From positions 6,431 through 70,430 of the forward strand of contig VMGE01000004.1 in NCBI GenBank assembly GCA_007376395.1: a stretch of 64,000 bases of DNA, written 5' to 3'. This DNA is from Microgenomates group bacterium Gr01-1014_5. GTDB lineage: Bacteria; Patescibacteriota; Microgenomatia; UBA8517; UBA10165. Made by a program: the position numbers and the translations under genes. Shown here piece after piece: positions 1,164 through 42,699 of this stretch. Position 1 is the first letter of the stretch. Every line of letters starts with the position of its first letter. Under the pieces are notes generated by a model. That model saw nothing but the letters and a program-made list of their open reading frames with translations. It was not told where the DNA came from and did no database searches.

Positions 1164-1186
1164 ATTGACAATTCGGGATTGGAAAG

Positions 1187-17808: not shown

Positions 17809-17837
17809 GGCCTCATAAGGTCTCACCTTGCGAAGCT
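17809..17837 (+). repeat. degenerate copy of the AGCTTCGCAAGG-TCTCT-CCTTGCGAAGCT palindromic element
   Basis: GGCCTCATAAGGTCTCACCTTGCGAAGCT. Right arm intact, left arm decayed. Confidence 0.45.
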
Positions 17838-30686: not shown

Positions 30687-30761
30687 TAATATTTAAATTT
30701 TCTCCGTTCTACGTAGAATGGTAGAAAACAAGAAAAGTTAGACCTTTGATATAATTGATTT

Positions 30762-33194
30762 GTGTTCAAGCGTGAAAATATTTTAATTGCGAAGCAACAA
30801 GCTTTGCTTATCCTTCTTATTACACTTCTTCTGACAGGTATTGTTTTTAGGCAGTTTTTCACTAAAGGCTTTTTGCCTATCCCGGCAGATATTATTACGG
30901 CTGGATACTATCCTTGGGCAGATTCCTCCTGGGGTTATCCTGTCCGTGTCCCAATTAAAAATAGTTTGCCGTCTGACGTCCCCTCGCTTCTATACCCCTG
31001 GCGCGTCCAGGCTTTAGAAATTTTTAAGTCAGGCTATCTCCCTCTTTGGAATCATACAATTCTTTTAGGTACTCCGCTTTTTGCTAACTTTCAGTCTGCA
31101 GTTCTAAATCCTGTCAATGTTTTGTTTTTTGTCTTACCGACGAAACTTGCCTGGAGTTGGCAAGTCATTTTACAAATACCTTTATTATTTTTAACTACGT
31201 TTCTTTTTCTTAGGAATTTAAAACTTTCCTTGCCGGCGACTGTATTCGGCGCTTTATGTTTTACGCTTTCCGGACAAGTATTAGTTTGGCTTGAATATAA
31301 CACTCTAGTTTACACTTATATTTACTTTCCCTTATTGTTTTTTCTAGTAGATTCTGGTTATCCTTTGAACACGCTTTACACCTTGGTTTTTCTTGCTCTT
31401 TATTTTTTATATCGAATACTTCGTTCTGGAAATGTAACCCCCGGGAAATTCATTCTCTTGTTTCTGGGAATTATTGGGGGTTTAGGTTTATCAGCAATCC
31501 AACTGATTCCCGGGCAAGAAATGGCTAACCTTTCTGTCCGCGCGTTTGATAATACCGCTATTGCAGGAGACGTCAAATATTTACCCCTTTCTCATATTCT
31601 TAGTTTTTTTATGCCCGACTTGTTTGGCAACCCCGGTACGCAAAATTATTGGAGTTCGGGAAGTTTTGATAACTTTTCGTTTTTTATACCTGCAGTAGGG
31701 GCTTACTTTTTTCTTCTCTCACTTTTTACCAGGACTGCCTTTAGAAGAGGGAACTTGATCTTTTTACTATTTTGCGTCATATCTCTTTTTTGGGCGGTCG
31801 CGAGTCCGTTAACAGAAGCTTTTGGAAGTTTAAGTTTTGCAGGAATTGGAGCGGCAGTTAACACTCGGGTATTGTTTATTTTTACTTTTAGCGCCTCGGT
31901 TTTGGCAGCATTTGGATTTGAGGAAGTCTTAAAAAACAAGGTGAGTTTATTCTGTAAAATTTTGCCTTTAACTGTCTTTTTTGCAATTGTTTTAGCTTTT
32001 TTAATAGCTTATCAGGCTTCCCAAAAGTTAGAAAAAGAAGTAGAGGATCTTGTGGCAAGTAATATTTCTCCTAGTGCACTTTTTACAGACGCGGGTGAAA
32101 ACGCACTAAATTCTGCCCGAGAGGGAATTAGTAATTTCAAAATTGGTTTGCGCAACACTGTAATTCCAACCTCGGTTGCCCTCCTAACCTTTGCCCTGAT
32201 AACAATTAATTTTAGGAGGTTTAATATGTTGGTAATTCCGCTTTTGGTTTTAGCAGTCTTGCCGACGTTTGATAAATATCTTTCGTTCGTGCGGCCTGAT
32301 TTAGTTTTCCCAGAGACTCAAGCAATGACTCGTTTGCAAGAGTTAACAGGAATTCATAGATTTGAACGCGAAAAAGCAGAGATATTACCTTCCAACACGT
32401 GGTCATTATATGGATTGAGCTCTCCTTCCGGACAAAACGCATTTGCCCCGCTTTCTGCTGTTCGTTATCTAGATATGATCAATCGTGGAAAACTTGACGA
32501 CCGCTTGTTAACCCGTTTTGTGCATGTTGAAAACACAAAGTCGCCCCTTTTCGATACGTTGGATATCGAAACTGTGGCTTACTTGGATCGACACGTAAAA
32601 GAATCCATACCTTACAAAGACGGTAGGCCATTCCCCTGGATTATGCCAAACGATTTTACCGAACTTGCCAATATCGATACTGTCAGAATTTATAAAAATA
32701 CGAACAATTTAGGTTCCGCCTGGTTTGCCAAGAATGTTATTTGCGAACACGATTTGGCAAAAAGTTCTCAGATTTTGACGGCAGAAGGTTTTAATCCCCG
32801 CGAGACTGCTGTGGTTTCCTGTAGTCAGGGTATAGTTGACGCCGACCTAGGCGAGGCAAAACTATTAGAGAAACAGCCCAACGGTCTGAATTTTTTAGTT
32901 AACACGCCGGAAGGGAATTATTTAGTTCTTTCCCAAACTAACTTTCCCGGTTGGAAGGCGTATATTGACGGAGGAGAAAGCTCAATAACACCAGCCAACA
33001 TCGGCCTCTCTGCCGTGTATGTCCCGCAAGGCAAACACGAAATAGAGTTAAAATACGAGCCTTTGAGTATTAAGGCCGGCTCTGTTATTTCTGGTTTTAC
33101 CTTAATTGGTTGGATATTGATTTGTTATCTGAATGTAATTAAAATCAGGTCAACTGCTCGCAATATATGGCAAAAGAAAGATGGGCTTCATTAA
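30762..33194 (+). CDS. YfhO-family polytopic membrane protein
   Basis: More than 12 predicted TM helices. N-terminal YPWADSSWG...LPLWNHTILLGTPLFANFQSA is typical of the YfhO family. Confidence 0.65.
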   Translation: MFKRENILIAKQQALLILLITLLLTGIVFRQFFTKGFLPIPADIITAGYYPWADSSWGYPVRVPIKNSLPSDVPSLLYPWRVQALEIFKSGYLPLWNHTILLGTPLFANFQSAVLNPVNVLFFVLPTKLAWSWQVILQIPLLFLTTFLFLRNLKLSLPATVFGALCFTLSGQVLVWLEYNTLVYTYIYFPLLFFLVDSGYPLNTLYTLVFLALYFLYRILRSGNVTPGKFILLFLGIIGGLGLSAIQLIPGQEMANLSVRAFDNTAIAGDVKYLPLSHILSFFMPDLFGNPGTQNYWSSGSFDNFSFFIPAVGAYFFLLSLFTRTAFRRGNLIFLLFCVISLFWAVASPLTEAFGSLSFAGIGAAVNTRVLFIFTFSASVLAAFGFEEVLKNKVSLFCKILPLTVFFAIVLAFLIAYQASQKLEKEVEDLVASNISPSALFTDAGENALNSAREGISNFKIGLRNTVIPTSVALLTFALITINFRRFNMLVIPLLVLAVLPTFDKYLSFVRPDLVFPETQAMTRLQELTGIHRFEREKAEILPSNTWSLYGLSSPSGQNAFAPLSAVRYLDMINRGKLDDRLLTRFVHVENTKSPLFDTLDIETVAYLDRHVKESIPYKDGRPFPWIMPNDFTELANIDTVRIYKNTNNLGSAWFAKNVICEHDLAKSSQILTAEGFNPRETAVVSCSQGIVDADLGEAKLLEKQPNGLNFLVNTPEGNYLVLSQTNFPGWKAYIDGGESSITPANIGLSAVYVPQGKHEIELKYEPLSIKAGSVISGFTLIGWILICYLNVIKIRSTARNIWQKKDGLH

Positions 33195-33667
33195 TCAGTG
33201 GCGGCGGTTCAACGATGTTTGAAATGGCCAGCGCAATTCAGAGCGGAGAAATAGAGATGGAGGCAGCCTGTGTAATTGCGAGCACTCCCGAGGCAGGTGG
33301 GCTGATAAAGGCTCAAACTTTAGGTATACCTGTTGAAGTTGTTAACCCAAAGGATTATACAGGGGCAGATGGCAAAGTAGACTTATACGCTTTTGGAGTT
33401 GCAAACCTCGCTGTATTAAGAAAGTATGGAGCAACAGTAGTTACTCAAAACGGCTATCTTGCCCGCACTTCTGATATTGTCATCGACGCCTTCCGCGACT
33501 CAATTTTTAACCAACACCCAGGGCCCAAGCGTGAAACCCACGGAACCAAAGGTACGCAACCCCACGCGATTATGCTTTATATTGCGCAAGCTACCGGGCG
33601 CAACCGCGGTACAGAAGTTATTACTCACCGCGTTAACTCTAAATGGGATGATGGGCTCTTCCGGTAG
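33167..33667 (+). CDS. purN: formyltransferase-domain protein, PurN-like (phosphoribosylglycinamide formyltransferase)
   Basis: LISGGGS...GIPVEVV...FNQHPGP resembles the PurN N-x-H catalytic region. Shorter than canonical PurN. Confidence 0.45.
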   Translation: MAKERWASLISGGGSTMFEMASAIQSGEIEMEAACVIASTPEAGGLIKAQTLGIPVEVVNPKDYTGADGKVDLYAFGVANLAVLRKYGATVVTQNGYLARTSDIVIDAFRDSIFNQHPGPKRETHGTKGTQPHAIMLYIAQATGRNRGTEVITHRVNSKWDDGLFR

Positions 33668-33709: not shown

Positions 33710-35137
33710 GTGAAGTTTGTGAGGTTGAAATTGCAAGACGATATACGGCCATACGCGAAGAGGAAATTTTACGGTCTGCACGGGTTTATGCCCGAAAAAG
33801 ATATCCTAATGGTTAAAGAAAGAGGGCAGACAGTTTTAGTTGTGGACGGTGGTGGAAGGGGGTCGGCTCTAGTACATAAATACTCGCTCTCTCACCGAGT
33901 CTCCAGAATTTTGTGTATCCCAGGAAACGATCTAAACGGACTTAATTCTAAAAAACCGGTCAAGATTTATCCTCACCTTGAGACAACTTCAGTCAGCCAA
34001 ATAGTTGAAATTTGTAAAAAAGAGAAGGTCGACTTGGTTGACGTTAACCAAGATAACGCAGTAGAGGCGGGTTTGACTGATGAACTGATTAAGAACGGAA
34101 TTAAGGCAATCGGACCGTCAAAACTTGCCGGGCAGATTGAATGGGACAAAGCTTGGGCTCGGGATTTTATGAAGAAATATAAAATTCCGCAACCAAAATA
34201 CCACGTATGTAATTCTCAAAAAGAGGGGATTACTTATATCAAAAAACAAAAAGACGGGAAGTGGTTTGTTAAAGCAGCAGGACTGGCGTTTGGCAAAGGA
34301 GCGCTTCCTGCTGAAAATAATAAACGGGCAATAGAAAGGATTAAGGAGATGAATAAATTTGGTAAATCTGGTGACACTTACGTAATTGAGGAGTGGTTAG
34401 AAGGTGAAGAATTTTCATTGTTCGTGCTTTGTGATAGTATCTCATACCACATAGTCGGTTGTGCTCAAGATCACAAACGAATGTATAACTGGGATTTAGG
34501 AGAAAACACCGGTGGTATCGGTTGCAGTACTCCACCTTTAGTTGTTGCTCCGAAAGTTTTGCGCGAGACCGATAGAAATATAATTAAAAAGACAGTTGAC
34601 GGGTTAAAAAAAGAAGGAAGAGAATTTAAAGGAATTTTGTATTTGGGAGCTATCATAGTCCGTGGTAAGGTATACGTAATTGAATTCAATGCTCGCTGGG
34701 GGAGCCCTGAGGCAGAAGTTTTGGTTCCGGCAATTGTGAATGATTTATTTGTAGTTTCAGATGCGATGGCCGAAGGTAGATTGTCAAAAATACATGTAAG
34801 GGTAGATAAAAAAGCCAGAGTAGCGGTGACACTTTCCTTAAGGGAAAACCCGACACCCGTGAACTCTAAGGTTGGTAGAAGAATTTATGGTATAGACCAA
34901 GTAAAACTAATTCCAGGTGTTACGCTGTATGGGGCAAGAGTTAGTAAGAAGGGTAACAAATACTATGCCGGATCCGGAAGACTGCTTCATATTGTGGGGG
35001 AGGGAAAAAATGTAATTGAGGCAAGGGAGAAAGCGTATCAGGCCGCATCACTTTTTTCTGTTGAAGGAAATAATCTTCATTATAGAACCGACATCGGCTG
35101 GCGGGACGTGGAGAGATTAAGGGTGGGAAACGCTTGA
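33710..35137 (+). CDS. purD: phosphoribosylamine--glycine ligase
   Basis: VLVVDGGGRGSALVHK. ATP-grasp segments EEWLEGEEFSLFVLCD and VIEFNARWGSPE. The true start may be an internal Met. Confidence 0.8.
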   Translation: MKFVRLKLQDDIRPYAKRKFYGLHGFMPEKDILMVKERGQTVLVVDGGGRGSALVHKYSLSHRVSRILCIPGNDLNGLNSKKPVKIYPHLETTSVSQIVEICKKEKVDLVDVNQDNAVEAGLTDELIKNGIKAIGPSKLAGQIEWDKAWARDFMKKYKIPQPKYHVCNSQKEGITYIKKQKDGKWFVKAAGLAFGKGALPAENNKRAIERIKEMNKFGKSGDTYVIEEWLEGEEFSLFVLCDSISYHIVGCAQDHKRMYNWDLGENTGGIGCSTPPLVVAPKVLRETDRNIIKKTVDGLKKEGREFKGILYLGAIIVRGKVYVIEFNARWGSPEAEVLVPAIVNDLFVVSDAMAEGRLSKIHVRVDKKARVAVTLSLRENPTPVNSKVGRRIYGIDQVKLIPGVTLYGARVSKKGNKYYAGSGRLLHIVGEGKNVIEAREKAYQAASLFSVEGNNLHYRTDIGWRDVERLRVGNA

Positions 35138-35167
35138 TCAAGCTCTGAAAGACAATGTCGTAAATTT

Positions 35168-35196
35168 AGCTTCGCAAGGTCTCTCCTTGCGAAGCT
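35168..35196 (+). terminator. perfect 12-bp-stem hairpin AGCTTCGCAAGG-TCTCT-CCTTGCGAAGCT after purD (member of a dispersed palindromic family)
   Basis: Read directly. Confidence 0.6.
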
Positions 35197-35210
35197 GACT
35201 TCAGCGCACT

Positions 35211-35233
35211 GTTTAAGGCGCCCCCTTAAACAA
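35211..35233 (+). repeat. 21-bp hairpin GTTTAAGG-CGCCC-CCTTAAAC, left copy flanking the 618-aa gene
   Basis: Near-identical copy at 37131-37153. Confidence 0.7.
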
Positions 35234-35271
35234 CCCAAACATTTTAGAAAAATGTTATATATACTTAAATT

Positions 35272-37128
35272 ATGAGTGAAAATGGCGAATCTGGCTCAAT
35301 ACCAAAAACTACTCCACCTTTTATTCGAGAATTTTCAAAAGTTAACAGTAAAGATGACCGCCTCGCTCTTGCACAGGAATTGAGAGCAAAACGGGCAGAA
35401 TATTTTGAGAGAAAAAGTTCTTTAACACAAAAATCATCAGAGGTTGCAATCAACATAGAGCAAACAGGAGAGCAGAAAAAAGCTGCTTTGGAAAATTTAG
35501 GAAACACACTTGAGGCAATCAATTCACTTCCAAGCCGCTGGTACGATAAGGTTTTAAATCTGTATAGAATTGTCAAATTAAATGCTCAAAAAGGAACCGA
35601 AAGTAGAGTTGCCAGTGAATTGCAAAAAGCAGAAGAGAGCCTGAATGAAGAGGAAAGTAAAATTGAAAAAGAGCTTAAAATACCTGGAAAAGATTTGGAA
35701 TTGGGAGAGGCTCGGCGCATGCTTGCTGGTTTTTACGAGAGACAAACCAAGCTTTGGCAGGAAGCGCCAATTGATCCAAAAGATCTCGAATATCTGCACG
35801 AATCTTATTTATCAAAACTAAATTTAGATCAATATATAACTTTGTTAAAAAAGTTTCCTTCCCGATTTTTAACACATGTAACAAGGCAGGGAATTAGGGA
35901 TCATATATCCCACCACGCGGTTCATCATGGCGATTTTATTGACGGTTTTGTTGATATTTTAAAAGCAGGAAAGCTTGATTCGGTTGTGAGCCAAATATTT
36001 AGAAACGGATTAAAAGATGAAGCAGTTGCAGAATTTTTAGGTCTTGAGAGGTACAAAAAATATGAAGAAGAAAGTTTAAAAAGACAATATGCGGATGAGC
36101 AGATGATGGGAGTTTATATTAGGAATATGGGTACTGAGCCTGCTATGCAATTTGTTAAGAAGAAGGTAAGAGACGAAACATTGAGCTCAGTTATACAAAA
36201 TCCTAATTCGCCTAGAATTTTTAGAGACAAGTCGTCTATACATTTCGCGTTTGACTGGGTTGCGGATTGTTATTATGGAGGTGAATCGGGAAACGAAATA
36301 TTTTTTGCGCTTCCTGCTGTATATGCGGCTTCAGAGTTGGGGTTAACAAGCGGTATTTCAAGAGAAAAAGAAACATATGAAAATTTTTCAAGAGTAGAAG
36401 CCGATGGTTGGAATGATGTTTGGGTTAATGGCGTCAAAAACGGAATAAACATTAATACTGCCATAGTTTTTATTCCGGCAAATACTCAAGTAGATAGAAA
36501 TACAGGTTCGCAATATGAATTGGATGAGAATTTAAAACCGGTTGAAAATAGCGAGCTGATAAACGAGGTTGTTAAACTCATGCGCAGGCCGGATATAGTT
36601 GATTATGCAAAAAAAAGCTTGCTTGCACATACTGCAGATTATGAAAAAGTGTCAGACCTAGAAGAATTAACCGGACTTAAAAGTGATTTGCTTTACATTG
36701 TTGCTAGAAATTTATCTACTGTAAGATTTCTTGACGAATTAGAATCACGCGACCCTTCAATTGATCCAGGGGGCGGCAAACAAAACTATATAAACAATGG
36801 CGGCGCATATAATGAGGTGAGGAAGATGCTATCCCAAGGCGGATATAATTTTAAGCTAAGCTCTGACACAATTTCTTCAAAAGATTATTGGGAAGACTTT
36901 TTTGCCAAAAATCCGAACCTGAAGCCAACAAAAATTGTTTATTACAGAGGTAGTCCTGAACGGGCTTTGGATGAATTTTACAAAAATAACGGGCTAGGGA
37001 CGGGGGACGCAGGTAAATTTTCCAATGTTGAAAAAGGTAAATTAAACGATCAGGAAATAAACGACGACTATAAAAGATTTATGGATATCGCCAAGGGAGT
37101 TATTGAGCGGTATTTTGCAGACAATTAA
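35272..37128 (+). CDS. large hypothetical protein (618 aa)
   Basis: Long ORF with coiled-coil N-terminus. Bracketed by two near-identical hairpins. Confidence 0.5.
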   Translation: MSENGESGSIPKTTPPFIREFSKVNSKDDRLALAQELRAKRAEYFERKSSLTQKSSEVAINIEQTGEQKKAALENLGNTLEAINSLPSRWYDKVLNLYRIVKLNAQKGTESRVASELQKAEESLNEEESKIEKELKIPGKDLELGEARRMLAGFYERQTKLWQEAPIDPKDLEYLHESYLSKLNLDQYITLLKKFPSRFLTHVTRQGIRDHISHHAVHHGDFIDGFVDILKAGKLDSVVSQIFRNGLKDEAVAEFLGLERYKKYEEESLKRQYADEQMMGVYIRNMGTEPAMQFVKKKVRDETLSSVIQNPNSPRIFRDKSSIHFAFDWVADCYYGGESGNEIFFALPAVYAASELGLTSGISREKETYENFSRVEADGWNDVWVNGVKNGININTAIVFIPANTQVDRNTGSQYELDENLKPVENSELINEVVKLMRRPDIVDYAKKSLLAHTADYEKVSDLEELTGLKSDLLYIVARNLSTVRFLDELESRDPSIDPGGGKQNYINNGGAYNEVRKMLSQGGYNFKLSSDTISSKDYWEDFFAKNPNLKPTKIVYYRGSPERALDEFYKNNGLGTGDAGKFSNVEKGKLNDQEINDDYKRFMDIAKGVIERYFADN

Positions 37129-37130
37129 CT

Positions 37131-37153
37131 ATTTAAGGCGTCCCCTTAAACAG
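37131..37153 (+). repeat. 21-bp hairpin TTTAAGG-CGTCC-CCTTAAAC, right copy, 4 nt after the stop codon
   Basis: 20/21 identity to 35211-35233. Confidence 0.7.
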
Positions 37154-37428
37154 TTTTGCCGGCTTTACCGTTTGGATTTTCACTTTGAGCGTTGCGAAAA
37201 GCAAGGTTCTGCGGAGCAGATTCTTATTTCTCCATTGTTAATTTCAACCGTAAAATTATTTTCCTGCGGCATTTTGGAAAGCTGATCATTCAAAAGTTGC
37301 TGGCCGATACCTCCAAAAATATCGGGAAAGGGGTTAAAAGAGAGACCGCCTAAGCTAATTTTTGTTATCTGTTGCACTTCCATATTCTACTACTGGAAGT
37401 GTCGGATATTTAAGTTGAATACAACGCG

Positions 37429-37460
37429 GGTTTGACAAGTCAGTACATTGTCAGTACAAT
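37429..37460 (+). promoter_or_regulatory. toxin-antitoxin promoter with overlapping direct-repeat operator
   Basis: TTGACA, 17-nt spacer, TACAAT. GTCAGTACA occurs twice (GTCAGTACAttGTCAGTACAatg) across the spacer and -10. Confidence 0.5.
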
Positions 37461-37466
37461 GTTTGT

Positions 37467-37709
37467 ATGTATATTCAAAAACTCTATAAAAACGGCAATT
37501 CAGTGGCCGTTACCATACCTAAACAGGTTTTGAGAGAACTTGACCTTCGTGATGGCACAAAGGTTGTGGTCGAGAAGCGGGGACAAGAAGTAGTGCTTAA
37601 ATCTGCAAGGAAGGTTAAAGCTCCTGGAGTGGATGCAAAGTTTATGAAAATGGTTGACGAGTTTATGCTGGGACATGAAGACGTCCTTGCAGAACTTGCA
37701 AGAAAGTGA
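37467..37709 (+). CDS. AbrB/MazE/SpoVT-type antitoxin
   Basis: KNGNSVAVTIPKQVLRELDLRDGTKVVVEKRGQEVVL is a swapped-hairpin signature. Overlaps the toxin start by 4 nt. Confidence 0.7.
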   Translation: MYIQKLYKNGNSVAVTIPKQVLRELDLRDGTKVVVEKRGQEVVLKSARKVKAPGVDAKFMKMVDEFMLGHEDVLAELARK

Positions 37710-38095
37710 AAATCAATTACCTCAACGTTCCTCAGGTTTTGGCCATTCACGATCAAGCGGTAAGGAGGTTTGGCGGATCGTTTGGTGTTCGTGATATTGG
37801 TCTTGTTGAGTCGGCTATTGCCAGGCCGCGTGCGACCTATGATGGAAATGACCTTTATCGAGATATTTTTGATAAGACAGCGGCTCTTTTGCAATCTCCT
37901 TTAAAGAATCATCCCTTTATTGATGGCAACAAACGGACAGCCCTGTCTTCAGCTGGCATCTTTCTTAAAATGAATGGGTATAGTTTGCAAAACAAACATG
38001 AAGAAGAAGTGAAATTTGCAATTAAAGTCGATAATGAACACCTAAGTTTAGAACAAATTTCCTCCTGGTTAAAAAAGAATTCAAAGAAAAATTAA
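37706..38095 (+). CDS. doc: Doc (death-on-curing) Fic-fold toxin
   Basis: HPFIDGNKRTA motif. Confidence 0.8.
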   Translation: MKINYLNVPQVLAIHDQAVRRFGGSFGVRDIGLVESAIARPRATYDGNDLYRDIFDKTAALLQSPLKNHPFIDGNKRTALSSAGIFLKMNGYSLQNKHEEEVKFAIKVDNEHLSLEQISSWLKKNSKKN

Positions 38096-38102
38096 CATAG
38101 GT

Positions 38103-38396
38103 TTAACTTATCCTTACACCAATGAAGTCGATCTTGGAAAAATGGGTTCGCACCTCGCTTCTAAATTTGTCTGCTAGATTTCCCGAAAAATTAGAATAAA
38201 CCCCGCGCTCGGTTTTGCCGCAAAGCCGCGCCTCGTGCTCCCGGAGAACCGGCAAAACTCTTTTCCCTACCTTATTGAAGCGGTAAGAGTATGCATCGGG
38301 GTTTTTGACAAAATTGTCGTGTATAACCTTGAAAGAAGCAAAAAGTTCTTTATTTTGCTCAAGCATTTCCTGGACTGCCTTTTTGTATCTTGTCAC
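38103..38396 (-). CDS. hypothetical protein
   Basis: ORF only. Confidence 0.3.
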   Translation of the reverse strand: MTRYKKAVQEMLEQNKELFASFKVIHDNFVKNPDAYSYRFNKVGKRVLPVLREHEARLCGKTERGVYSNFSGNLADKFRSEVRTHFSKIDFIGVRIS

Positions 38397-38434
38397 GAAA
38401 TGTATTGTATCAGACGGGAGAGAAATGGAGTTAA

Positions 38435-38965
38435 TTATCCGGCAAAAATGCCAATTAAGTTTGCTTTGCGAACCATTTTTCTAAATTCTTCTTCTGAGTA
38501 GACGACGTCATGATGTTTGACTGTAACCCTAAAACCCTGATCTGATAATATACGTTTTGTTTTATCTGTTTTACTAAGCGAATTATTAAAAATACCTCCT
38601 ACAAGAGACTGAGCAGGGTATGCACGCGGTAGGGCATATGTATCAGTAGTTTGCGTAAAGCTTATCCTTTTGCCCCATAATCCCTTTGCCGTAAATTTTG
38701 TGTAGTATTCCCATTCGTCATACCCTCTGGGCAATGATATTTGTTCATCCGGTTGGACAAGAACTTTTCTTTCGCCGATTTGTGCCAGAACTTCCTTTGC
38801 TCTTGCTAACCGCGCGACTTCAATAAAATCCCCAAGGGTTCCTATTTTTATTTCTGGGCGGAAATGTTCTACAACAGTTTGTCTAAATCTTTCTAACCTT
38901 CCAGCCATGCAAGGATTATACTCCGGCAAACAGGCATAGTCAAAAAAACTGCAAATGTTTGACAA
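38435..38965 (-). CDS. hypothetical protein
   Basis: ORF only. Confidence 0.35.
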   Translation of the reverse strand: MSNICSFFDYACLPEYNPCMAGRLERFRQTVVEHFRPEIKIGTLGDFIEVARLARAKEVLAQIGERKVLVQPDEQISLPRGYDEWEYYTKFTAKGLWGKRISFTQTTDTYALPRAYPAQSLVGGIFNNSLSKTDKTKRILSDQGFRVTVKHHDVVYSEEEFRKMVRKANLIGIFAG

Positions 38966-39555
38966 TTAAAATGGAGTGCCTATACTATGAGACTATGGAA
39001 CTTATACTAGGTAATGTTCTTGAAGGTGTTAACCCGGAAAATCTATCTTCACGCGCAATGTGGAATAAGATCAATGCAATTATTGATGTTGATCAAGAAG
39101 CGGCAAGAAGCTTTGCAGGGGTAATGGTTCACCCAACTCTTAAAGGAAAAACAAAGCAGGAAATTATAGAAGGTTTGAAACAGAGAGGTGGAGATTTAAT
39201 AAGAACAAGTGTTATGACAGGACATCTCGAAACATGCTTAGATTGCGGAAAGCATTATGTAGCCGGTTCAATTGAATTAGAACGGGTAATGCCGGATGAT
39301 TCTACCCAAAATCCATATATAGAAAGAGGGCCAAATTACACAAGAGTTACATCGTTCGTAGATGCAATAAATTGGAAAAGGAAAAGAAAAGACCAGAGAA
39401 CATTTTCTATTCCCGCTGCTGTAGGACACGCAATGCAAATACATAATAGTTGTGCAGCAAGGTTTAGGGCGCCAGCCAGCGAAGATTACCCTGTACTTGT
39501 TAATAAGACGTCGAGTATAAACCCCCATGAACTTAAGACATTTTTAGGGGTATAA
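38959..39555 (+). CDS. hypothetical protein
   Basis: ORF only. One CxxC. Confidence 0.35.
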   Translation: MTIKMECLYYETMELILGNVLEGVNPENLSSRAMWNKINAIIDVDQEAARSFAGVMVHPTLKGKTKQEIIEGLKQRGGDLIRTSVMTGHLETCLDCGKHYVAGSIELERVMPDDSTQNPYIERGPNYTRVTSFVDAINWKRKRKDQRTFSIPAAVGHAMQIHNSCAARFRAPASEDYPVLVNKTSSINPHELKTFLGV

Positions 39556-39572
39556 TATCTCTACCTTTCTAA

Positions 39573-39989
39573 ATGAAAAAGTATTTAATTATTCTGCTTC
39601 TTGTAACGTCAGGCGTTTTGGCTTTTGGAGGTAATAACTTTGCATTTTTGAAATCAACATTGTCTCCCGCTATGCCAGCTTCCGAAGTTGCCCGCGAGGT
39701 GAAGAAAGCAACTGTCGAAATTGTCGATAGAGGTGAGTTGCGAAAATATCCGGATCTTGAGTTTAAAGAGGGTGAAACAGCGCTTGGCTTAACCCGCTTA
39801 GTCGTGGAAGTTGAGACCAAAGGGGAAGGGGAACAAGCATTTGTAACCGCAATTAGCGGAAAGTTAGCCGATTCGGTCAAGAAAGAATTTTGGTCGTTTT
39901 TAGTCAACGGTAAAATGGCAGAGACAGGGGCGGGAAGTTATAAAGTGCAAAATGGCGACACAATTACTTGGAAGATATCCACATTTTGA
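39573..39989 (+). CDS. secreted DUF4430-like small protein
   Basis: Signal peptide. C-terminal YKVQNGDTITWKI resembles DUF4430 domains found beside ECF S-components. Confidence 0.35.
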   Translation: MKKYLIILLLVTSGVLAFGGNNFAFLKSTLSPAMPASEVAREVKKATVEIVDRGELRKYPDLEFKEGETALGLTRLVVEVETKGEGEQAFVTAISGKLADSVKKEFWSFLVNGKMAETGAGSYKVQNGDTITWKISTF

Positions 39990-40507
39990 TGTTAATTTAC
40001 GGACTTATTGCACTAGGCGCGTTATTTAGAATCGTTTCGCACCTTTCTGGATTTGAAATTTTTCCACCAAACTTTGCGCCGATTGGGGCAATGGCTCTCT
40101 TTGGCGGTTTTTACCTTCCGCGGAAGATGAGTATAGTTATGCCGCTCGCGGCTATGTTTATCTCGGATTTAGTTATCGGATTTTACTCGCTTCCCGTAAT
40201 GTTCTCAGTTTACATAAGTTTTATTTTAATTAACTTTATTGGACAAGCACTGAGACAAAAGAAAAACACAGTTTTGACTTTTGGCGGGGTAATTAGTTCT
40301 TCTGTTTTGTTCTTTTTAGTTACAAACTTTGCTGTTTGGGCAATACCGAATTCTATGTACAGCCACAACTTCCAAGGATTACTCGCAAGCTATATTGCAG
40401 GTTTGCCATTTTTGAAATTTACTTTAGCAGGAGACCTTTTCTTTAATGGTTTGTTTTTTACAGCCTATGCTTTAGGAAGCCAGAAGAAGTTTTTAAGAGC
40501 TTTTTAG
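39968..40507 (+). CDS. small polytopic membrane protein, ECF-transporter S-component-like
   Basis: About 6 TM helices, 179 aa. Overlaps the preceding gene. Confidence 0.35.
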   Translation: MEDIHILMLIYGLIALGALFRIVSHLSGFEIFPPNFAPIGAMALFGGFYLPRKMSIVMPLAAMFISDLVIGFYSLPVMFSVYISFILINFIGQALRQKKNTVLTFGGVISSSVLFFLVTNFAVWAIPNSMYSHNFQGLLASYIAGLPFLKFTLAGDLFFNGLFFTAYALGSQKKFLRAF

Positions 40508-40560
40508 GGTTTGTAAATTGATATGTAGAGAAAGTTGCAAACGTAGCATATAATTCCTAC

Positions 40561-41694
40561 ATGAGTTTAGAAAACAGAATCGGGATTGTTGGCGGCGGTC
40601 AGTTGGGTCGAATGATGACTTTGGATGCCAAGCGTTTGGGATTTGAGGTAATAGTGGTTGACTCAACACCAAACAGTCCCGCAAAGCAAGTTGGCGCTGA
40701 GCAGATTGTTGCACCTCTTACAGACGAAGCCGCAACAAGGCAATTGGCTGAGGTTTCCGACTTTCTCACTTTTGAAATAGAACACATTAACACAGACGTG
40801 CTTCGTGAACTAAGAGAAAGTGGAATAAGAGTAAATCCTTCTCCGGAAACATTAGAGACGATTAAAGATAAGTTAAATCAAAAACGATTTCTTCAAGGTT
40901 GGGGTATACCAGTTGTTGAGTTCTCCGAAGTGACCGACAGAGACGGAGCATTGGAAGTAGCCAGTTTGTTTGGTTTTCCCTTTGTTCTCAAGTCTCGTTT
41001 TGGCGGTTACGACGGGAGGGGGAATTTGGTGGTTATGGACGGAAAGGAGCTTGATTGGGCTCTGGAAAAATTTGGAAAGCAACCGCTCTATGCAGAGAGA
41101 TACGTTCGTCTTGAAAAAGAGCTAGCTATAATGGTTGCCAGAAGCATGAGTGGGGAAATAGTGACTTATCCTGTAGTTGAAACTATTCATAGAAACAACA
41201 TCTGCCATATCGTGCTTGCTCCTGCGCCTGTTGACATAAAGGTATATCAACAAGCGGAGAATATTAGTAGGGAAATAATGCGACATCTTAAAGGAGCCGG
41301 TGTGTTTGGAATCGAGATGTTTATGACAAGAGACGGAGAGGTTCTTGTCAATGAATTAGCGCCTCGTGTACATAATTCCGGTCATTATACAATTGAGGCT
41401 TGCAGAACCTCGCAGTTTGAACAGCATGTGCGGGCAATAACAGGCCTGCCGCTTGGTAGTACAGAGATGACAGTGCCGGCCGCTGTAATGGTAAATATTT
41501 TAGGCGATAGACAAGGGAAAGCTCAGGTTCTTGGCCTTAACGAAGTATTAAAAATCCGTAACGCAGGTGTGCACATCTACGGGAAGGCAGAAACAAAACC
41601 AGAGAGGAAAATGGGCCATATTACCGTAGTTGCAGACAGTATCGAAGAAGCTCGAAGAAACGCCGAATTAGCAAGAAGTTTAATTTCAATTTAA
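40561..41694 (+). CDS. purK: N5-carboxyaminoimidazole ribonucleotide synthase
   Basis: IGIVGGGQLGRMM. ATP-grasp core. Length fits PurK. Confidence 0.8.
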   Translation: MSLENRIGIVGGGQLGRMMTLDAKRLGFEVIVVDSTPNSPAKQVGAEQIVAPLTDEAATRQLAEVSDFLTFEIEHINTDVLRELRESGIRVNPSPETLETIKDKLNQKRFLQGWGIPVVEFSEVTDRDGALEVASLFGFPFVLKSRFGGYDGRGNLVVMDGKELDWALEKFGKQPLYAERYVRLEKELAIMVARSMSGEIVTYPVVETIHRNNICHIVLAPAPVDIKVYQQAENISREIMRHLKGAGVFGIEMFMTRDGEVLVNELAPRVHNSGHYTIEACRTSQFEQHVRAITGLPLGSTEMTVPAAVMVNILGDRQGKAQVLGLNEVLKIRNAGVHIYGKAETKPERKMGHITVVADSIEEARRNAELARSLISI

Positions 41695-41736
41695 ACATAA
41701 TTTGACAGAGAGTAAAAATTTGCTTATTGTTAAACA

Positions 41737-42699
41737 ATGCCCAAGAACTCTAAAACACAAGCCGGTATAGTTCACTTACTAACACTTCTTGTCATAGCAG
41801 GATTGGGTTTATTTGTTGCAGGTAATATTCCAACCACGAAAAATCTAGCTTCAACCCAAAGCGTTTTAGGAGAAAACGAAGAAGCTAAAAAGGCTGAAGA
41901 ACAGGCAAAAGAAGTAGCCAAGAAAACAGAAGAACGGCAAAAAGAAGACAGTAAATCAAATTCTGGTTCGGGAAACCCTAAAAAATCTGAGTCAGAAACT
42001 ATTTCTTCAACAGGCACAAAATCGAAAACCAAGATAGAAGGTAATAAGCAAGAAACAGAGATAGAAACTGCCGATGGGCAAAAAATCAAGACAAAGGTCG
42101 AAGACGACGGTACTGCAAAGGTAGAAATTGAGCGCGGTCAGCTTAAGGTAAAGTATGTATTCGAAAACGGTGTGTTAAAACTAAAGGCGGAGAATGAAAG
42201 TGGCAAAGAAGTGGAATTGGAAGACGACGAGCTTGACGAAGTTGAATCAGAGCTGGAAGACGATGGAATTAAAATTGCCTCAGCCTCAGGCAGACCTGTT
42301 CTTTCGAGAAATAAAATTGGAGCGCAAACCGATTTCCCGCTTTCAATTGATATTGGAACCAATCAGTTGATAGTTAGTACTCCGGCAGGGCAAAAAGTAG
42401 TTACAGTTTTACCCGATCAGGCGGTGCAAAATTTACTGGCGACTAATATTATAAATAGTGTAGATTCTACAGGCACGGATGCTGCAGGAGAGTTGGGGGC
42501 GTTGGATAGCGTAGTAAAGCTGGAGATGAGAAACGACGAAGTTGTCTATAGGGTCAAGGGAGTAAAGACACGAAGATTATTTGGGTTGTTTAGCGTCAAC
42601 AATTCCACCACTGTCTTTGTGTCTAGTGAAAGCGGACTGCCTGTTGCCCAAGAACAATCTTTGCTGGCTAATATAGTCGACTCCCTTTCTCCTCAATAA
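41737..42699 (+). CDS. secreted hypothetical protein with Lys/Glu-rich region
   Basis: N-terminal TM/signal. Low-complexity charged repeats. Confidence 0.4.
   Translation: MPKNSKTQAGIVHLLTLLVIAGLGLFVAGNIPTTKNLASTQSVLGENEEAKKAEEQAKEVAKKTEERQKEDSKSNSGSGNPKKSESETISSTGTKSKTKIEGNKQETEIETADGQKIKTKVEDDGTAKVEIERGQLKVKYVFENGVLKLKAENESGKEVELEDDELDEVESELEDDGIKIASASGRPVLSRNKIGAQTDFPLSIDIGTNQLIVSTPAGQKVVTVLPDQAVQNLLATNIINSVDSTGTDAAGELGALDSVVKLEMRNDEVVYRVKGVKTRRLFGLFSVNNSTTVFVSSESGLPVAQEQSLLANIVDSLSPQ

What the first reader, a model, noticed from the sequence alone, without database searches (positions are those of the whole stretch)
35138..40560. Accessory block splitting purN-purD from purK: a 618-aa unknown gene flanked by two near-identical 21-bp hairpins, an AbrB/Doc toxin-antitoxin pair, three unknown ORFs, and DUF4430-like plus ECF-S-like genes
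purD ends at 35137 and purK starts at 40561. In between lies non-pur cargo. The 618-aa ORF is bounded by TTTAAGG-CGCCC-CCTTAAAC at 35211 and TTTAAGG-CGTCC-CCTTAAAC at 37131, which are 20/21 identical with the same 8-bp stem and 5-nt loop. The second copy begins 4 nt after the stop codon. That is the geometry of an inserted cassette or a duplicated attachment or terminator hairpin. Downstream is a toxin-antitoxin pair whose promoter carries a tandem GTCAGTACA operator. Three further ORFs have no detectable family.
Basis: partly seen in the sequence, partly recalled or inferred. Interest (0 to 1): 0.58.

Follow-up and report, generated by a model that had tools for sequence, protein, structure and literature searches.

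The report
Transposase-linked hairpin repeats flank gene
The two near-identical hairpins on either side of the 618-residue gene are copies of a short palindromic repeat that, in related uncultured bacteria, flanks a hairpin-acting (Y1/HUH) transposase gene, so they look like REP-type repeats lodged at gene ends rather than the borders of a newly inserted cassette.

Summary
A 25-nt direct repeat (23/25 identical, hairpin-forming) lies at 35208-35232 and 37128-37152. These are the only two copies in 64 kb (0.01 expected). The window comes from the CPR bacterium Microgenomates Gr01-1014_5.

The cassette reading is only partly supported. Four related strains keep the 618-aa gene, the AbrB/Doc pair and two minus-strand ORFs after purD, whether or not the hairpins are intact. 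The 618-aa protein belongs to a large, uniform CPR-wide family (686 clusters at 50% identity). Its distant members sit among housekeeping genes without hairpins. Each gene here has its own consensus promoter and looks leaderless, so no operon is split.

The exact 24-mer CTGTTTAAGGCGTCCCCTTAAACA abuts the stop codon of a Y1 transposase gene in Microgenomates contigs from the same groundwater metagenome as one relative. An inverted copy lies upstream of that gene. Other Y1 genes of this family carry cognate AAGG-N5-CCTT hairpins with co-varying stems and loops.

Best reading: these are solo REP-like, Y1-transposase-associated hairpins at gene 3' ends, likely acting as transcript-end structures and rearrangement hot spots. 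The function of the 618-aa protein remains unknown: its model is confident, but no fold, Pfam or PDB match was found. Interest is moderate.

The parts
35168..35196 (+). Hairpin A: AGCTTCGCAAGG-tctct-CCTTGCGAAGCT, a 12-bp stem 30 nt after the purD stop. It is a REP-like palindrome of a sister subfamily (loop TCTNN).
   Evidence: Searches show the fold. A second copy lies at 17810-17836. L002 has two compensatory pair changes and L001/L017 a G.U wobble. Its stem is nearly identical to the Y1-flanking hairpins of L021, AGCTTCGAAAGG-ggacg-CCTTGCAAAGCT.
35208..35232 (+). Upstream copy (REP1) of the 25-nt repeat ACTGTTTAAGG-cgccc-CCTTAAACA. It has a 9-bp perfect stem and lies upstream of the 618-aa gene promoter.
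   Evidence: It is identical in L001/L017, degenerate in L002 and disrupted in L003.
35238..35265 (+). Palindrome AACATTTT-aga-AAAATGTT (35238-35256), followed by the -10-like box TATACT (35260-35265). The ATG at 35272 is the 7th base after the box, so the mRNA is likely leaderless.
   Evidence: (palindrome) and reading. This is inference; the start site has not been mapped.
35272..37128 (+). 618-aa protein. It is a member of a CPR-wide family of about 590 aa with no annotation. It has an N-terminal long helical hairpin (about residues 16-165) and a C-terminal alpha/beta domain with invariant residues H202 T204 R205 Q206 G207 R209 D210 H211 H215 H324 Y335 E338 N341 E342.
   Evidence: (686 clusters) define the family. 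The AF2 models are good: pLDDT 82.8, pTM 0.76, and pLDDT 77, pTM 0.77 for the C-terminal domain. There is no Pfam, NCBIfam, PHROG, PADLOC, PDB-sequence or Foldseek match.
37128..37152 (+). Downstream copy (REP2): ACTATTTAAGG-cgtcc-CCTTAAACA. It overlaps the last base of the stop codon and has the same orientation as REP1.
   Evidence: Its 20-mer is identical to the hairpin at the stop of the Y1 transposase genes of L015 and L019. Homology with L001/L017 breaks right after it, at 37155.
37180..37383 (-). 3' remnant (67-aa ORF) of a convergent membrane-anchored gene. The gene is longer in L002 and absent in L001, L017 and L003.
37432..37460 (+). Toxin-antitoxin promoter TTGACA-17-TACAAT. Tandem GTCAGTACA repeats (37439-37447, 37450-37458) are the presumed operator. 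The ATG lies 7 nt after the -10 box.
   Evidence: It is conserved in L001, L002 and L003. The operator role is inferred.
37467..37709 (+). AbrB/MazE-fold antitoxin (80 aa). It overlaps the toxin gene by 4 nt.
   Evidence: PF04014, E 1.9e-9.
37706..38095 (+). Doc-type toxin (129 aa) with the Fic-fold motif HPFIDGNKR.
   Evidence: PF02661, E 2e-17; weak PADLOC matches to Fic-domain candidate models.
38103..38396 (-). Unknown ORF, at most 97 aa (87 aa in L001-L003). It is the second gene of a minus-strand pair.
   Evidence: No family was found.
38435..38943 (-). Unknown ORF. Its real start is probably ATG 38908 (157 aa). It has its own promoter, TTGACT-17-TATAAT (38943-38915).
   Evidence: It is conserved in relatives at 155-166 aa. 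No family was found.
38959..39555 (+). Divergent promoter TTGACA-16-TATACT (38959-38986) and an unknown ORF. The likely start is ATG 38995 (186 aa). The ORF is absent in L001, L017 and L002.
   Evidence: No family was found.
39573..39989 (+). DUF4430 protein with an N-terminal signal-like segment. DUF4430 is the C-terminal domain type of transcobalamins.
   Evidence: searches (E 6e-19; Transcobalamin-1, E 0.003) and PMC4350170.
39968..40507 (+). DUF6580 multi-pass membrane protein. It overlaps the DUF4430 gene, so the two are probably one unit. The bulk is deleted in L001/L017, which keep the last ~105 nt.
   Evidence: (E 6e-47).
40526..40554 (+). purK's own promoter-like site, TAGAGA-17-TATAAT. 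The ATG at 40561 lies 7 nt after it.
17810..17836 (+). Second copy of the hairpin A family (GCCTCATAAGG-tctca-CCTTGCGAAGC).

Best explanation
The two hairpins at 35208-35232 and 37128-37152 are solo copies of a REP-like palindromic repeat with the unit CTGTTTAAGG-CGYCC-CCTTAAACA. The stronger hairpin just before the first one, at 35168-35196, is a sister type. The cognate enzyme of this repeat is a Y1 (HUH) tyrosine transposase of the RAYT/IS200 kind that is widespread in Microgenomates.

Such enzymes bind and cut single-stranded DNA hairpins and seed copies of them into intergenic DNA. The copies here landed at the 3' ends of purD and of the 618-aa gene.

In place they most likely act as transcript-end stem-loops, giving termination or 3'-end protection. 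They also act as break points for deletions and rearrangements. That fits the observation that strain-to-strain homology breaks exactly at them.

The genes between purD and purK are not one inserted element. They are a string of independently promoted, apparently leaderless genes:
- a vertically inherited CPR-specific 618-aa protein of unknown function;
- a Doc/AbrB toxin-antitoxin pair;
- small unknown genes;
- a DUF4430/DUF6580 uptake-like pair.

These lie in a deletion-prone stretch of a reduced genome.

Shown: the sequence identity with Y1-flanking hairpins, the architecture at the Y1 genes, the conservation of gene order, and the family distribution. Inferred: that a Y1 enzyme of this genome made these two copies, and that they act on transcripts.
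For: 1. Link to a Y1 transposase.
- An exact-match scan of metagenome contigs for the 20-mer gave 4 loci: L017 (a 91%-identical relative with both copies), two chance hits (L014 and L016), and L015.
- In L015 the hairpin starts directly after the stop codon of a 225-aa Y1_Tnp protein (PF01797, E 4e-12; HUH motif PNHFHLL; Tyr in SRYIH).
- The same 24 nt, CTGTTTAAGGCGTCCCCTTAAACA, is shared by L001/L017, L015 and L019.

2. Architecture at the Y1 genes.
- Upstream of the L015 and L019 Y1 genes lies the same palindrome in inverted orientation, CTGTTTAAGG-GGACG-CCTTGyAC.
- This is the REP/RAYT arrangement described in PMC5581495.

3. Co-variation across the Y1 family.
- The L018 gene (71% identity) has GAACAAGG-CGACC-CCTTGAAC and GAACAAGG-GGTCG-CCTTGTTC.
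- L020 has AAGG-GGWCC-CCTT.
- L021 has AGCTTCGAAAGG-GGACG-CCTTGCAAAGCT and AAAGG-CCWGG-CCTTT.
- So each Y1 subfamily has its own hairpin built on an AAGG-N5-CCTT core.

4. Naming and distribution of the Y1 proteins.
- The only NCBIfam match for these proteins is REP-associated tyrosine transposase, below its cut-off.
- The family is very large, and its few named hits are all CPR: Levybacteria, Curtissbacteria and 'Patescibacteria group'.
- The L015 FtsZ is closest to Blackburnbacteria and other Microgenomates.
- The identical Y1 protein occurs in the same samples as L001 and L017.

5. Situation in the window.
- AAGG-N5-CCTT occurs 7 times against 1.77 expected (0 of 100 shuffles reach 7). Five of the seven lie at gene 3' ends or in intergenic gaps.
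- Hairpin A keeps its pairing through two double substitutions in L002 and a G.U wobble in L001/L017.

6. Break points.
- Homology between strains ends at REP2 (37155). REP1 is the site of the L003 rearrangement.

7. Not a cassette.
- See (gene order kept; distant members among housekeeping genes, no hairpins; 686 clusters; no clear GC anomaly; no viral relatives).
Against: - No Y1 gene lies in the 64-kb window (tblastn). The rest of this genome could not be read, so the cognate enzyme is not shown to be in the same genome.
- L015 is not proven to come from the window's lineage. Its FtsZ has no listed hit from Gr01-1014_5, and its tetranucleotide correlation of 0.92 is compatible but not diagnostic.
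- Copy number is low: 2 copies in 64 kb, and only the two gene-flanking copies on each of the L001 and L017 contigs. Classical REPs occur tens to hundreds of times. No REPIN doublets were seen.
- That the only two copies flank the same gene in the same orientation is not explained by random seeding. The chance is roughly a few per cent if about 60 gaps are equally available.
- Neither copy fits a canonical intrinsic terminator, and the scan called none of them.
- The Y1 proteins score below the NCBIfam RAYT cut-off. In L021 three paralogues lie within 10 kb. In L002 a Y1 gene is an insertion polymorphism. These traits are more IS-like than RAYT-like.
Confidence: 0.6

Rival explanations
1. Mobilisable cassette. 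The two hairpins lie in direct orientation, which mimics the left and right subterminal hairpins of an IS200/IS605-type element. A Y1 transposase supplied in trans could then excise and reinsert the 618-aa gene as single-stranded DNA. On this view the gene reached this site, or can leave it, as a passenger.
For: - Both copies have the same orientation and enclose exactly one gene with its promoter.
- They are the only two copies in 64 kb.
- In L003 the sequence upstream of the gene contains the right half of the hairpin together with flank that lies downstream of the gene in L001/L017 (CTTAAACAGTTAAAC plus the TTGACAATCCGGGATTGGAAAGCTA element). That is what a circle junction or a tandem copy would give.
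- Y1 genes are variable in this lineage. L002 carries a ~1-kb Y1 insertion that the window lacks.
Against: - The gene follows purD in the window, L001, L017 and L002, across 83-100% aa identity. In L003 the stretch upstream of the gene is not purD and is unexplained, so its position is not informative. No empty site and no second location was found.
- Distant family members are single genes in housekeeping neighbourhoods without hairpins.
- The family is uniform and CPR-wide, as expected for vertical inheritance.
- There are no relatives on viral contigs.
- At the Y1 genes themselves the flanking hairpins are mostly inverted, not direct.
- L003 is a 3.6-kb contig and may be chimeric.
Confidence: 0.08
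2. Local regulatory or terminator palindromes unrelated to transposases. A host hairpin, either a terminator or the binding site of a dimeric DNA-binding protein, was duplicated locally. Its identity with the Y1-flanking hairpin is coincidence or convergence.
For: - Both copies sit where terminators or operators sit. REP2 lies 3 nt after a stop codon, between convergent genes. REP1 lies about 40-60 nt upstream of the 618-aa gene's ATG.
- In L002 the downstream copy keeps the outer stem GTTTAAG/CTTAAAC while the inside is replaced by another GC hairpin. This suggests selection for structure.
- In L002 both copies share the change GGCG to GGGG.
Against: - A 24-nt identity with the hairpin abutting Y1 genes in two independent contigs, plus an inverted partner upstream of those genes, is very unlikely by chance.
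- The whole Y1 family shows cognate AAGG-N5-CCTT hairpins.
- There is no T-run after REP1, and the terminator scan did not call either copy.
- L003 lacks REP2 yet keeps the gene and the TA pair.
Confidence: 0.2
3. Integron-like or tyrosine-recombinase attachment sites (attC/att) bounding a gene cassette.
For: The only support is the geometry: a palindrome directly after a single promoter-bearing ORF, repeated on the other side.
Against: - The repeat is 25 nt, whereas attC sites are about 55-140 nt. From established knowledge, attC sites carry RYYYAAC/GTTRRRY cores, which are absent here (reading).
- None of the genes scanned between 29949 and 44683 is an integrase.
- Gene order is stable in relatives.
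Confidence: 0.02

Closest known systems
REP sequences and REP-associated tyrosine transposases (RAYT; Nunvar 2010, Bertels and Rainey 2011, Ton-Hoang 2012, Bertels 2017 = PMC5581495)
   Same: - Short imperfect palindromes of 20-35 nt lie in extragenic DNA, mostly at gene 3' ends.
- The cognate Y1/HUH transposase gene is flanked by copies in inverted orientation (L015, L019, L018, L021).
- Hairpin sequence co-varies with the transposase subfamily.
- The Y1 gene keeps its position next to ftsZ in L015 and L018, as expected for a resident gene.
   Different: - Copy number is low: 2 copies plus 2-3 sister copies in 64 kb.
- Only singlets were seen, no REPIN doublets.
- The core is AAGG-N5-CCTT preceded by CTG, not the enterobacterial GTAG-REP.
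- There are several Y1 paralogues per genome, each with its own hairpin.
- The Y1 proteins fall below the NCBIfam RAYT cut-off.
- A further copy of the hairpin lies inside the Y1 coding sequence, 536 nt from the upstream copy.
- The host is CPR. Two full-text searches found no description of REP/RAYT systems in CPR.
IS200/IS605-family insertion sequences and their non-autonomous derivatives
   Same: - They use a Y1 HUH transposase.
- They have subterminal hairpins instead of inverted terminal repeats.
- Hairpins in direct orientation bound the mobile segment, which is the geometry seen around the 618-aa gene.
- L002 shows presence/absence of a Y1 unit relative to the window.
   Different: - The segment bounded here carries no transposase.
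- It shows no sign of mobility.
- At most of the Y1 genes themselves the flanking hairpins are inverted.
Phd/Doc-type toxin-antitoxin modules
   Same: The toxin is Doc (Fic fold, HxFxDGNKR motif), preceded by a small overlapping antitoxin gene. An autoregulation-type repeat lies in the promoter.
   Different: The antitoxin has the AbrB/MazE fold rather than the Phd fold. The mRNA is apparently leaderless.
CPR-enriched protein families of unknown function (from my own knowledge: Meheust et al. 2019, Nat Commun)
   Same: The 618-aa protein belongs to a large family whose named members are all CPR. Its length is uniform and it has no domain annotation.
   Different: No family label could be assigned. 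The confident model has no Foldseek neighbour in PDB or BFVD.

Membership tests
REP / RAYT system | A Y1 (HUH) tyrosine transposase with the HUH motif and a catalytic Tyr | tested here: met
   L015, L019, L018, L020 and L021 proteins match PF01797. The motifs PNHFHLL and SRYIH are present. The only NCBIfam match is NF047646, at 34-52 bits against a cut-off of 80. This is met in related contigs, not in the window itself.
REP / RAYT system | The transposase gene is flanked by the palindromes in inverted orientation | tested here: met
   Flanks are inverted in L015, L019, L018 and the third L021 gene. They are direct in L020, and the downstream copy is missing at the first L021 gene.
REP / RAYT system | The same palindrome is over-represented in extragenic DNA of the same genome | tested here: inconclusive
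   The window has 2 copies in 64 kb against 0.01 expected, and the AAGG-N5-CCTT core occurs 7 times against 1.77 expected. One solo copy follows a CHASE-domain gene in L021. The whole genome was not available (one search did not contain this MAG).
REP / RAYT system | The cognate transposase is encoded in the same genome as the repeats | tested here: inconclusive
   There is none in the window. The identical Y1 protein is found in the same two samples as L001 and L017, but binning could not be checked.
REP / RAYT system | Single-copy, vertically inherited transposase gene | tested here: inconclusive
   The gene lies next to ftsZ in L015 and L018. However, L021 has three paralogues within 10 kb, and L002 has a Y1 insertion polymorphism.
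REP / RAYT system | REP doublets (REPINs) as the replicating unit | tested here: not met
   Only singlets were found. Hairpin A and REP1 are adjacent, but they are in direct orientation and of different subtype.
IS200/IS605-type transposable unit (for the 618-aa gene segment) | Similar subterminal hairpins on the same strand at both ends | tested here: met
   The two copies are 23/25 identical and in the same orientation.
IS200/IS605-type transposable unit (for the 618-aa gene segment) | Evidence of mobility: several copies, empty sites, or different locations in relatives | tested here: not met
   The gene follows purD in the window, L001, L017 and L002. L003 differs upstream in a way that is unexplained. 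Distant homologues are not hairpin-flanked.
Integron gene cassette / attC | An attC site of about 55-140 nt with R''/L''/L'/R' boxes, and an integrase nearby | tested here: not met
   The palindrome is 25 nt and lacks those cores. None of the genes scanned between 29949 and 44683 is an integrase.
Intrinsic (Rho-independent) terminator | A GC-rich stem followed by a T-run | tested here: not met
   The consensus scan called none of the three hairpins. The tails are AACCCAAAC for REP1 and AGTTTTGCC for REP2. This does not exclude termination or 3'-end protection by another route.
Doc/antitoxin module | A Fic-fold Doc toxin with the HxFx(D/E)(A/G)NKR motif, and an upstream overlapping antitoxin | tested here: met
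   PF02661 matches at E 2e-17, with HPFIDGNKR in the translation. PF04014 antitoxin matches at E 1.9e-9. The two genes overlap by 4 nt.
   Pfam assigns only DUF6580. No PDB sequence match was found. The neighbouring DUF4430 protein weakly matches the transcobalamin-1 C-terminal domain.

The most novel reading that the evidence does not exclude
CPR bacteria have their own kind of REP/Y1-transposase system. The master copy of the hairpin lies inside the transposase coding sequence, at a fixed 536 nt from an upstream copy and over the motif after the catalytic Tyr. The enzyme seeds low-copy solo hairpins at gene ends. Two direct copies, as around the 618-aa gene, would then make a host gene excisable as a single-stranded circle. 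This would be a way to shuffle or lose single genes in reduced genomes. The odd upstream junction in L003 would be a trace of such an event.
Probability: 0.1. Interest if true: 0.7.

Novelty: new member of a known kind. Interest (0 to 1): 0.42.

Why it matters
- It explains a striking pair of repeats without invoking a new mobile cassette, and it corrects the picture of a split pur operon.
- It points to REP-like repeats and RAYT/IS200-like Y1 transposases as agents of micro-rearrangement in the small genomes of CPR bacteria. Two literature searches found no description of them there.
- It isolates a large CPR-wide protein family (686 clusters at 50% identity). The family has a confident predicted structure, many invariant polar residues and no detectable relative. 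It is a well-defined target for function discovery.

Tried and rejected
- Generic terminator: rejected. There are only 2 copies, and only 13 strong perfect hairpins in 64 kb.
- Genome-collection scan for the 20-mer: 4 hits. The three Clostridium/Clostridiaceae hits are one homologous sequence, which in the two contigs examined (L010, L013) lies inside a coding gene. The fourth is a 59% GC Pyrinomonadaceae contig. I count them as chance, and the MAG itself is not in that collection. In the metagenome scan, L014 (human gut) carries that same Clostridium-type sequence and L016 is 58% GC.
- Known RNA families: none in 34500-41000. No tRNA gene is present as an integration target.
- Function of the 618-aa protein: there were no hits from:
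  - Pfam on the protein and on 49 family members;
  - NCBIfam, PHROGs and PADLOC;
  - a PDB profile search;
  - Foldseek against PDB (whole model and C-terminal domain) and BFVD.
  The only matches were coiled-coil hits to the N-terminal helices.
- An ADP-ribosyltransferase-like or 2H-phosphoesterase-like reading of the motifs HVTR / HFA..YYG / GNEIFF was considered from memory. I dropped it because the confident model finds no such fold.
- A 1616-aa fusion protein of the family (P0148) gave no informative domain.
- Phage or defence association: no relatives on viral contigs, and no PADLOC hit except weak matches of the Doc protein to Fic-domain candidate models.
- Foreign origin by composition: the 618-aa gene has 37-38% GC against 38-46% nearby, so no clear anomaly.
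- Placing L015 in the window's lineage through FtsZ: only Blackburnbacteria-like hits at 76% or less, so unresolved.

Full report
**1. What is there**

The window comes from the CPR bacterium 'Microgenomates group bacterium Gr01-1014_5'. The 618-aa ORF is 100% identical to its protein G01um10145_525 (TSC89368.1).

Pfam confirms these genes:
- YfhO at 30762-33194;
- a PurN-like gene at 33167-33667;
- purD at 33710-35137;
- an AbrB/MazE-type antitoxin at 37467-37709;
- Doc at 37706-38095;
- DUF4430 at 39573-39989;
- DUF6580 at 39968-40507;
- purK at 40561-41694;
- an unknown 320-aa ORF;
- purM at 42957-44066.

The repeat is real. It reads ACTGTTTAAGGCGCCCCCTTAAACA at 35208-35232 and ACTATTTAAGGCGTCCCCTTAAACA at 37128-37152, which is 23/25 identical. 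No third copy exists in 64 kb even with three mismatches allowed, against 0.01 expected. Copy 1 folds with a 9-bp stem. Copy 2 has 7 bp, an A.C mismatch, then 4 more pairs.

AGCTTCGCAAGG-tctct-CCTTGCGAAGCT lies at 35168-35196, between purD and copy 1.

**2. The block in relatives**

Four contigs from related strains were recovered. Their 618-aa proteins are 87% (L001 and L017), 83% (L002) and 80% (L003) identical to the window's.
- L001 and L002 show the order YfhO-purN-purD-618aa-AbrB-Doc-87aa(-)-~160aa(-).
- L017 shows purD-618aa-AbrB-Doc-97aa(-)-166aa(-), followed by purK.
- L003 shows 618aa-AbrB-Doc-87aa(-)-~160aa(-).

The core of the block is therefore old and stable in this genus. Its edges are not:
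- L001 and L017 lack window 38945-40402, which holds the 186-aa ORF, DUF4430 and most of DUF6580. They keep the last ~105 nt of the DUF6580 gene in front of purK, so this is a deletion in them.
- L002 also lacks purK. It has a PIN/MazE pair and an Rdx gene before purM.
- The window's 67-aa ORF at 37180-37383(-) is the stump of a gene that is longer in L002 and absent in the others.
- The window's own purN is cut at residue 164 of 239.

The hairpins vary independently of the genes:
- both are intact in L001 and L017;
- in L002 the upstream copy is degenerate, and the downstream copy keeps GTTTAAG...CTTAAAC around a different inner GC hairpin;
- in L003 the downstream copy is absent and the upstream one is replaced by a rearranged stretch.

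Homology between the window and L001/L017 stops at 37155, directly after copy 2.

**3. Transcription layout**

The consensus scan finds strong sigma-70-type promoters in front of six units. In each case the ATG is the 7th base or so after the -10 box, with no Shine-Dalgarno sequence (plus reading):
- the TA pair (TTGACA-17-TACAAT, 37432-37460);
- the minus-strand pair (38943-38915);
- the 186-aa ORF (38959-38986);
- purK (40526-40554);
- the 320-aa ORF (41702-41730);
- the 618-aa gene, by reading (TATACT at 35260-35265).

These genes therefore look individually transcribed and leaderless, which is an inference. The idea of a pur operon being split loses its force. Two ORFs listed from TTG codons inside their own -35 boxes should start at ATG 38908 (157 aa) and ATG 38995 (186 aa).

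**4. The 618-aa protein**

It has 88 further homologues in the word-indexed search, all about 550-680 aa and none with a Pfam domain. Source names include Parcubacteria, Saccharibacteria, Taylorbacteria and Microgenomates. A profile search of 1.8 billion representatives finds 686 clusters (409 at E<1e-30), almost all covering the whole profile.

The 49-sequence alignment has 25 invariant columns. They include H202, T204, R205, Q206, G207, R209, D210, H211, H215, H324, Y335, E338, N341 and E342.

AlphaFold2 gives a confident model with pLDDT 82.8 and pTM 0.76. It has a long N-terminal helical hairpin (about residues 16-165) and an alpha/beta C-terminal domain. The C-terminal domain alone gives pLDDT 77 and pTM 0.77.

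Foldseek finds only coiled-coil matches for the N-terminus, and nothing with probability above 0.3 for the C-terminal domain in PDB or BFVD. Pfam (also run on all 49 members), NCBIfam, PHROGs, PADLOC and a PDB profile search are empty.

Distant members lie in varied housekeeping neighbourhoods, and their flanks carry no comparable hairpins:
- next to RNase J and TrpRS;
- next to signal peptidase, ParB and L21/L27;
- next to an adenosylhomocysteinase fusion.

One genome has two paralogues. No relative occurs on viral contigs. This is a vertically inherited CPR family of unknown function. My guess, weakly held, is a cytoplasmic metal-dependent enzyme on a coiled-coil stalk, based on the cluster of invariant His, Asp and Glu residues. 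Nothing here tests that.

**5. What the hairpins are**

An exact scan of species-representative genomes gave four hits. Three are one homologous Clostridium-group sequence, which lies inside a coding gene in the two contigs examined. The fourth is a GC-rich Pyrinomonadaceae contig. All look like chance.

The metagenome scan gave four loci. L017 is the relative, and two are chance hits: L014 (human gut) carries the same sequence as the Clostridium contig L010, and L016 has 58% GC.

The fourth is L015. There the hairpin, with an extended 13-bp stem, begins directly after the stop codon of a 225-aa protein that Pfam calls Y1_Tnp (IS200-like), E 4e-12. It carries the HUH motif PNHFHLL and the Tyr motif SRYIH.

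The upstream flank of that gene holds the same palindrome in the opposite orientation, CTGTTTAAGG-GGACG-CCTTGTAC. A second contig with an 84%-identical Y1 protein (L019) has the same pair.

More distant members of this Y1 family show the same design with changed sequence:
- L018 (71% identity) has GAACAAGG-CGACC-CCTTGAAC and GAACAAGG-GGTCG-CCTTGTTC;
- L020 (64%) has AAGG-GGWCC-CCTT;
- L021 (63%, plus two further paralogues) has AGCTTCGAAAGG-GGACG-CCTTGCAAAGCT, AAAGG-CCWGG-CCTTT and TTCACCT-TCC-AGGTGAA.

The last type also flanks the unrelated-subfamily Y1 gene that L002 carries as a ~1-kb insertion, relative to the window, between the C39 peptidase gene and YfhO.

Each Y1 subfamily thus has its own hairpin, mostly built on an AAGG-N5-CCTT core. 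The flanking copies are inverted in four of six genes. This is the hallmark arrangement of REP sequences and REP-associated tyrosine transposases (PMC5581495). RAYT is also the only NCBIfam model these proteins touch, though below its cut-off.

The Y1 family is very large; its few named hits are all CPR (Levybacteria, Curtissbacteria and 'Patescibacteria group'). L015 carries an FtsZ closest to Blackburnbacteria. The identical Y1 protein occurs in the same two assemblies that yielded L001 and L017.

Hairpin A of the window has nearly the same stem as the L021 hairpins, with another loop. It has a second copy at 17810-17836 and an imperfect one around the stop codon at 23361-23363. The AAGG-N5-CCTT core occurs 7 times in the window against 1.77 expected, and 0 of 100 shuffles reach 7.

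**6. How it most likely works**

- Shown: the window's two hairpins are sequence-identical members of a palindrome family that flanks Y1 transposase genes in Microgenomates.
- Inferred: a Y1 enzyme of this lineage, acting on single-stranded hairpin DNA as established for IS200/IS605 TnpA and E. coli TnpA-REP, deposited them in the gaps after purD and after the 618-aa gene.
- Inferred: once there they serve as transcript-end stem-loops. Hairpin A keeps its pairing through two double substitutions in L002 and through a G.U wobble in L001/L017, which argues for selection on an RNA structure. None of the three fits the classical terminator pattern.
- Observed: they coincide with rearrangement and deletion end points among strains.

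**7. Rivals**

- The cassette reading treats two direct hairpins as left- and right-end mimics that mobilise the gene. The geometry and the odd L003 junction fit it. The stable position, the family's vertical pattern and the lack of any second location argue against it. I give it 0.08.
- A purely local terminator or operator palindrome unrelated to transposases gets 0.2. It fails to explain the 24-nt identity with the Y1 flanks.
- An attC-like site gets 0.02, because the repeat is far too short and no integrase was found among the scanned neighbours.

**8. Limits**

- The cognate Y1 gene is not in the window, and I could not read the rest of the genome.
- L015 is not proven to be from the same lineage.
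- Copy number is low, and no REPIN doublets were seen.
- No structure jobs remained for the small unknown ORFs.

**9. Verdict**

The hairpins are best filed as REP-like, Y1-transposase-associated repeats, a new member of a known kind in a phylum where two literature searches found no description of them. The rest of the block is an ordinary, deletion-prone mix of a toxin-antitoxin pair, small orphans and an uptake-like pair. The 618-aa protein is a well-defined CPR-wide unknown. Interest is 0.42.

Noticed in passing
L015 2042, L019 546, L018 1552, L020 10491, L021 8386 and 17085 (core start positions): Every Y1 transposase gene of this family carries a further copy of its own hairpin core inside the coding sequence. 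In five genes it lies exactly 536 nt after the upstream copy, and in the sixth 559 nt. It encodes [QK]-G-x-[PA]-[LF] just after the catalytic Tyr. Its 5-nt loop co-varies with the flanking copies (CGACC, GGWCC, GGACG, CCAGG).
   Followed up: partly
window 35260-35274, 37455-37469, 38906-38920, 38981-38997, 40549-40563, 41725-41739: Six genes in a row have a consensus-like -10 box, with the ATG as about the 7th to 9th base after it and no Shine-Dalgarno sequence. This suggests leaderless mRNAs as the rule in this stretch (plus reading).
   Followed up: partly
window 33167-33667: The purN-like gene is truncated at residue 164 of 239 compared with L001 and L002 (89-92% identical up to that point). 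L002 in turn lacks purK. The pur genes look eroded in this genus.
   Followed up: partly
window 1165-1189; L001 6599-6623; L017 3047-3071; L003 290-314: A promoter-like 25-mer, TTGACAATYCGGGATTGGAAAGCTA, has an inner palindrome AATCC-N-GGATT. It recurs after a stop codon in the window, after the downstream hairpin in L001/L017 and before the 618-aa gene in L003. In the window it points into the end of a minus-strand gene.
   Followed up: no
L003 195-382: Upstream of the 618-aa gene, L003 has this order: hairpin A, a 39-nt fragment resembling the purD 3' end, the 25-mer above, and the right half of the hairpin with flank that is downstream of the gene in L001/L017. This could be a rearrangement, a tandem or circle junction, or an assembly chimera. 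It is unresolved.
   Followed up: partly
L002 36-1032 against window 30735-30760: A ~1-kb unit holds a 223-aa Y1 transposase gene (36% identical to the L015 one). It is flanked by TACACCT-tcc-AGGTGTA-type hairpins. It is present in L002 between the C39 peptidase gene and YfhO, where the window has 26 nt.
   Followed up: partly
L021 7896-17290: Three Y1 transposase paralogues lie within 10 kb, each with its own hairpin type, together with an IS1595-type DDE transposase gene. A solo AAAGG-CCAGG-CCTTT hairpin lies shortly after the stop of a CHASE-domain gene.
   Followed up: no
window 11289-11321 (inside ORF 10281-11720): An AAGG-N5-CCTT palindrome with an extended stem, TTTGCAAGG-aatac-CCTTGCGAA, resembles hairpin A but lies inside a 479-aa ORF.
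   Followed up: no
window 23345-23377: An imperfect palindrome of the hairpin A type (loop TCTAG) contains the TAG stop of the 472-aa gene. It sits where two convergent ORFs overlap.
   Followed up: no
window 39573-40507: The DUF4430 protein weakly matches the C-terminal domain of transcobalamin-1 (E 0.003). It overlaps the gene of a multi-pass DUF6580 membrane protein. This is possibly a corrinoid-type uptake pair, lost in L001, L017 and L002.
   Followed up: partly
P0148 (1616 aa), residues 1074-1615: One representative carries the 618-aa family region as the C-terminal third of a 1616-aa protein. Its N-terminal 1070 residues have no Pfam domain.
   Followed up: partly
window 41737-42699: An unannotated 320-aa ORF sits between purK and purM with its own promoter. 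It is conserved in L017 and L002 and has no Pfam, NCBIfam, PHROG or PADLOC match.
   Followed up: no
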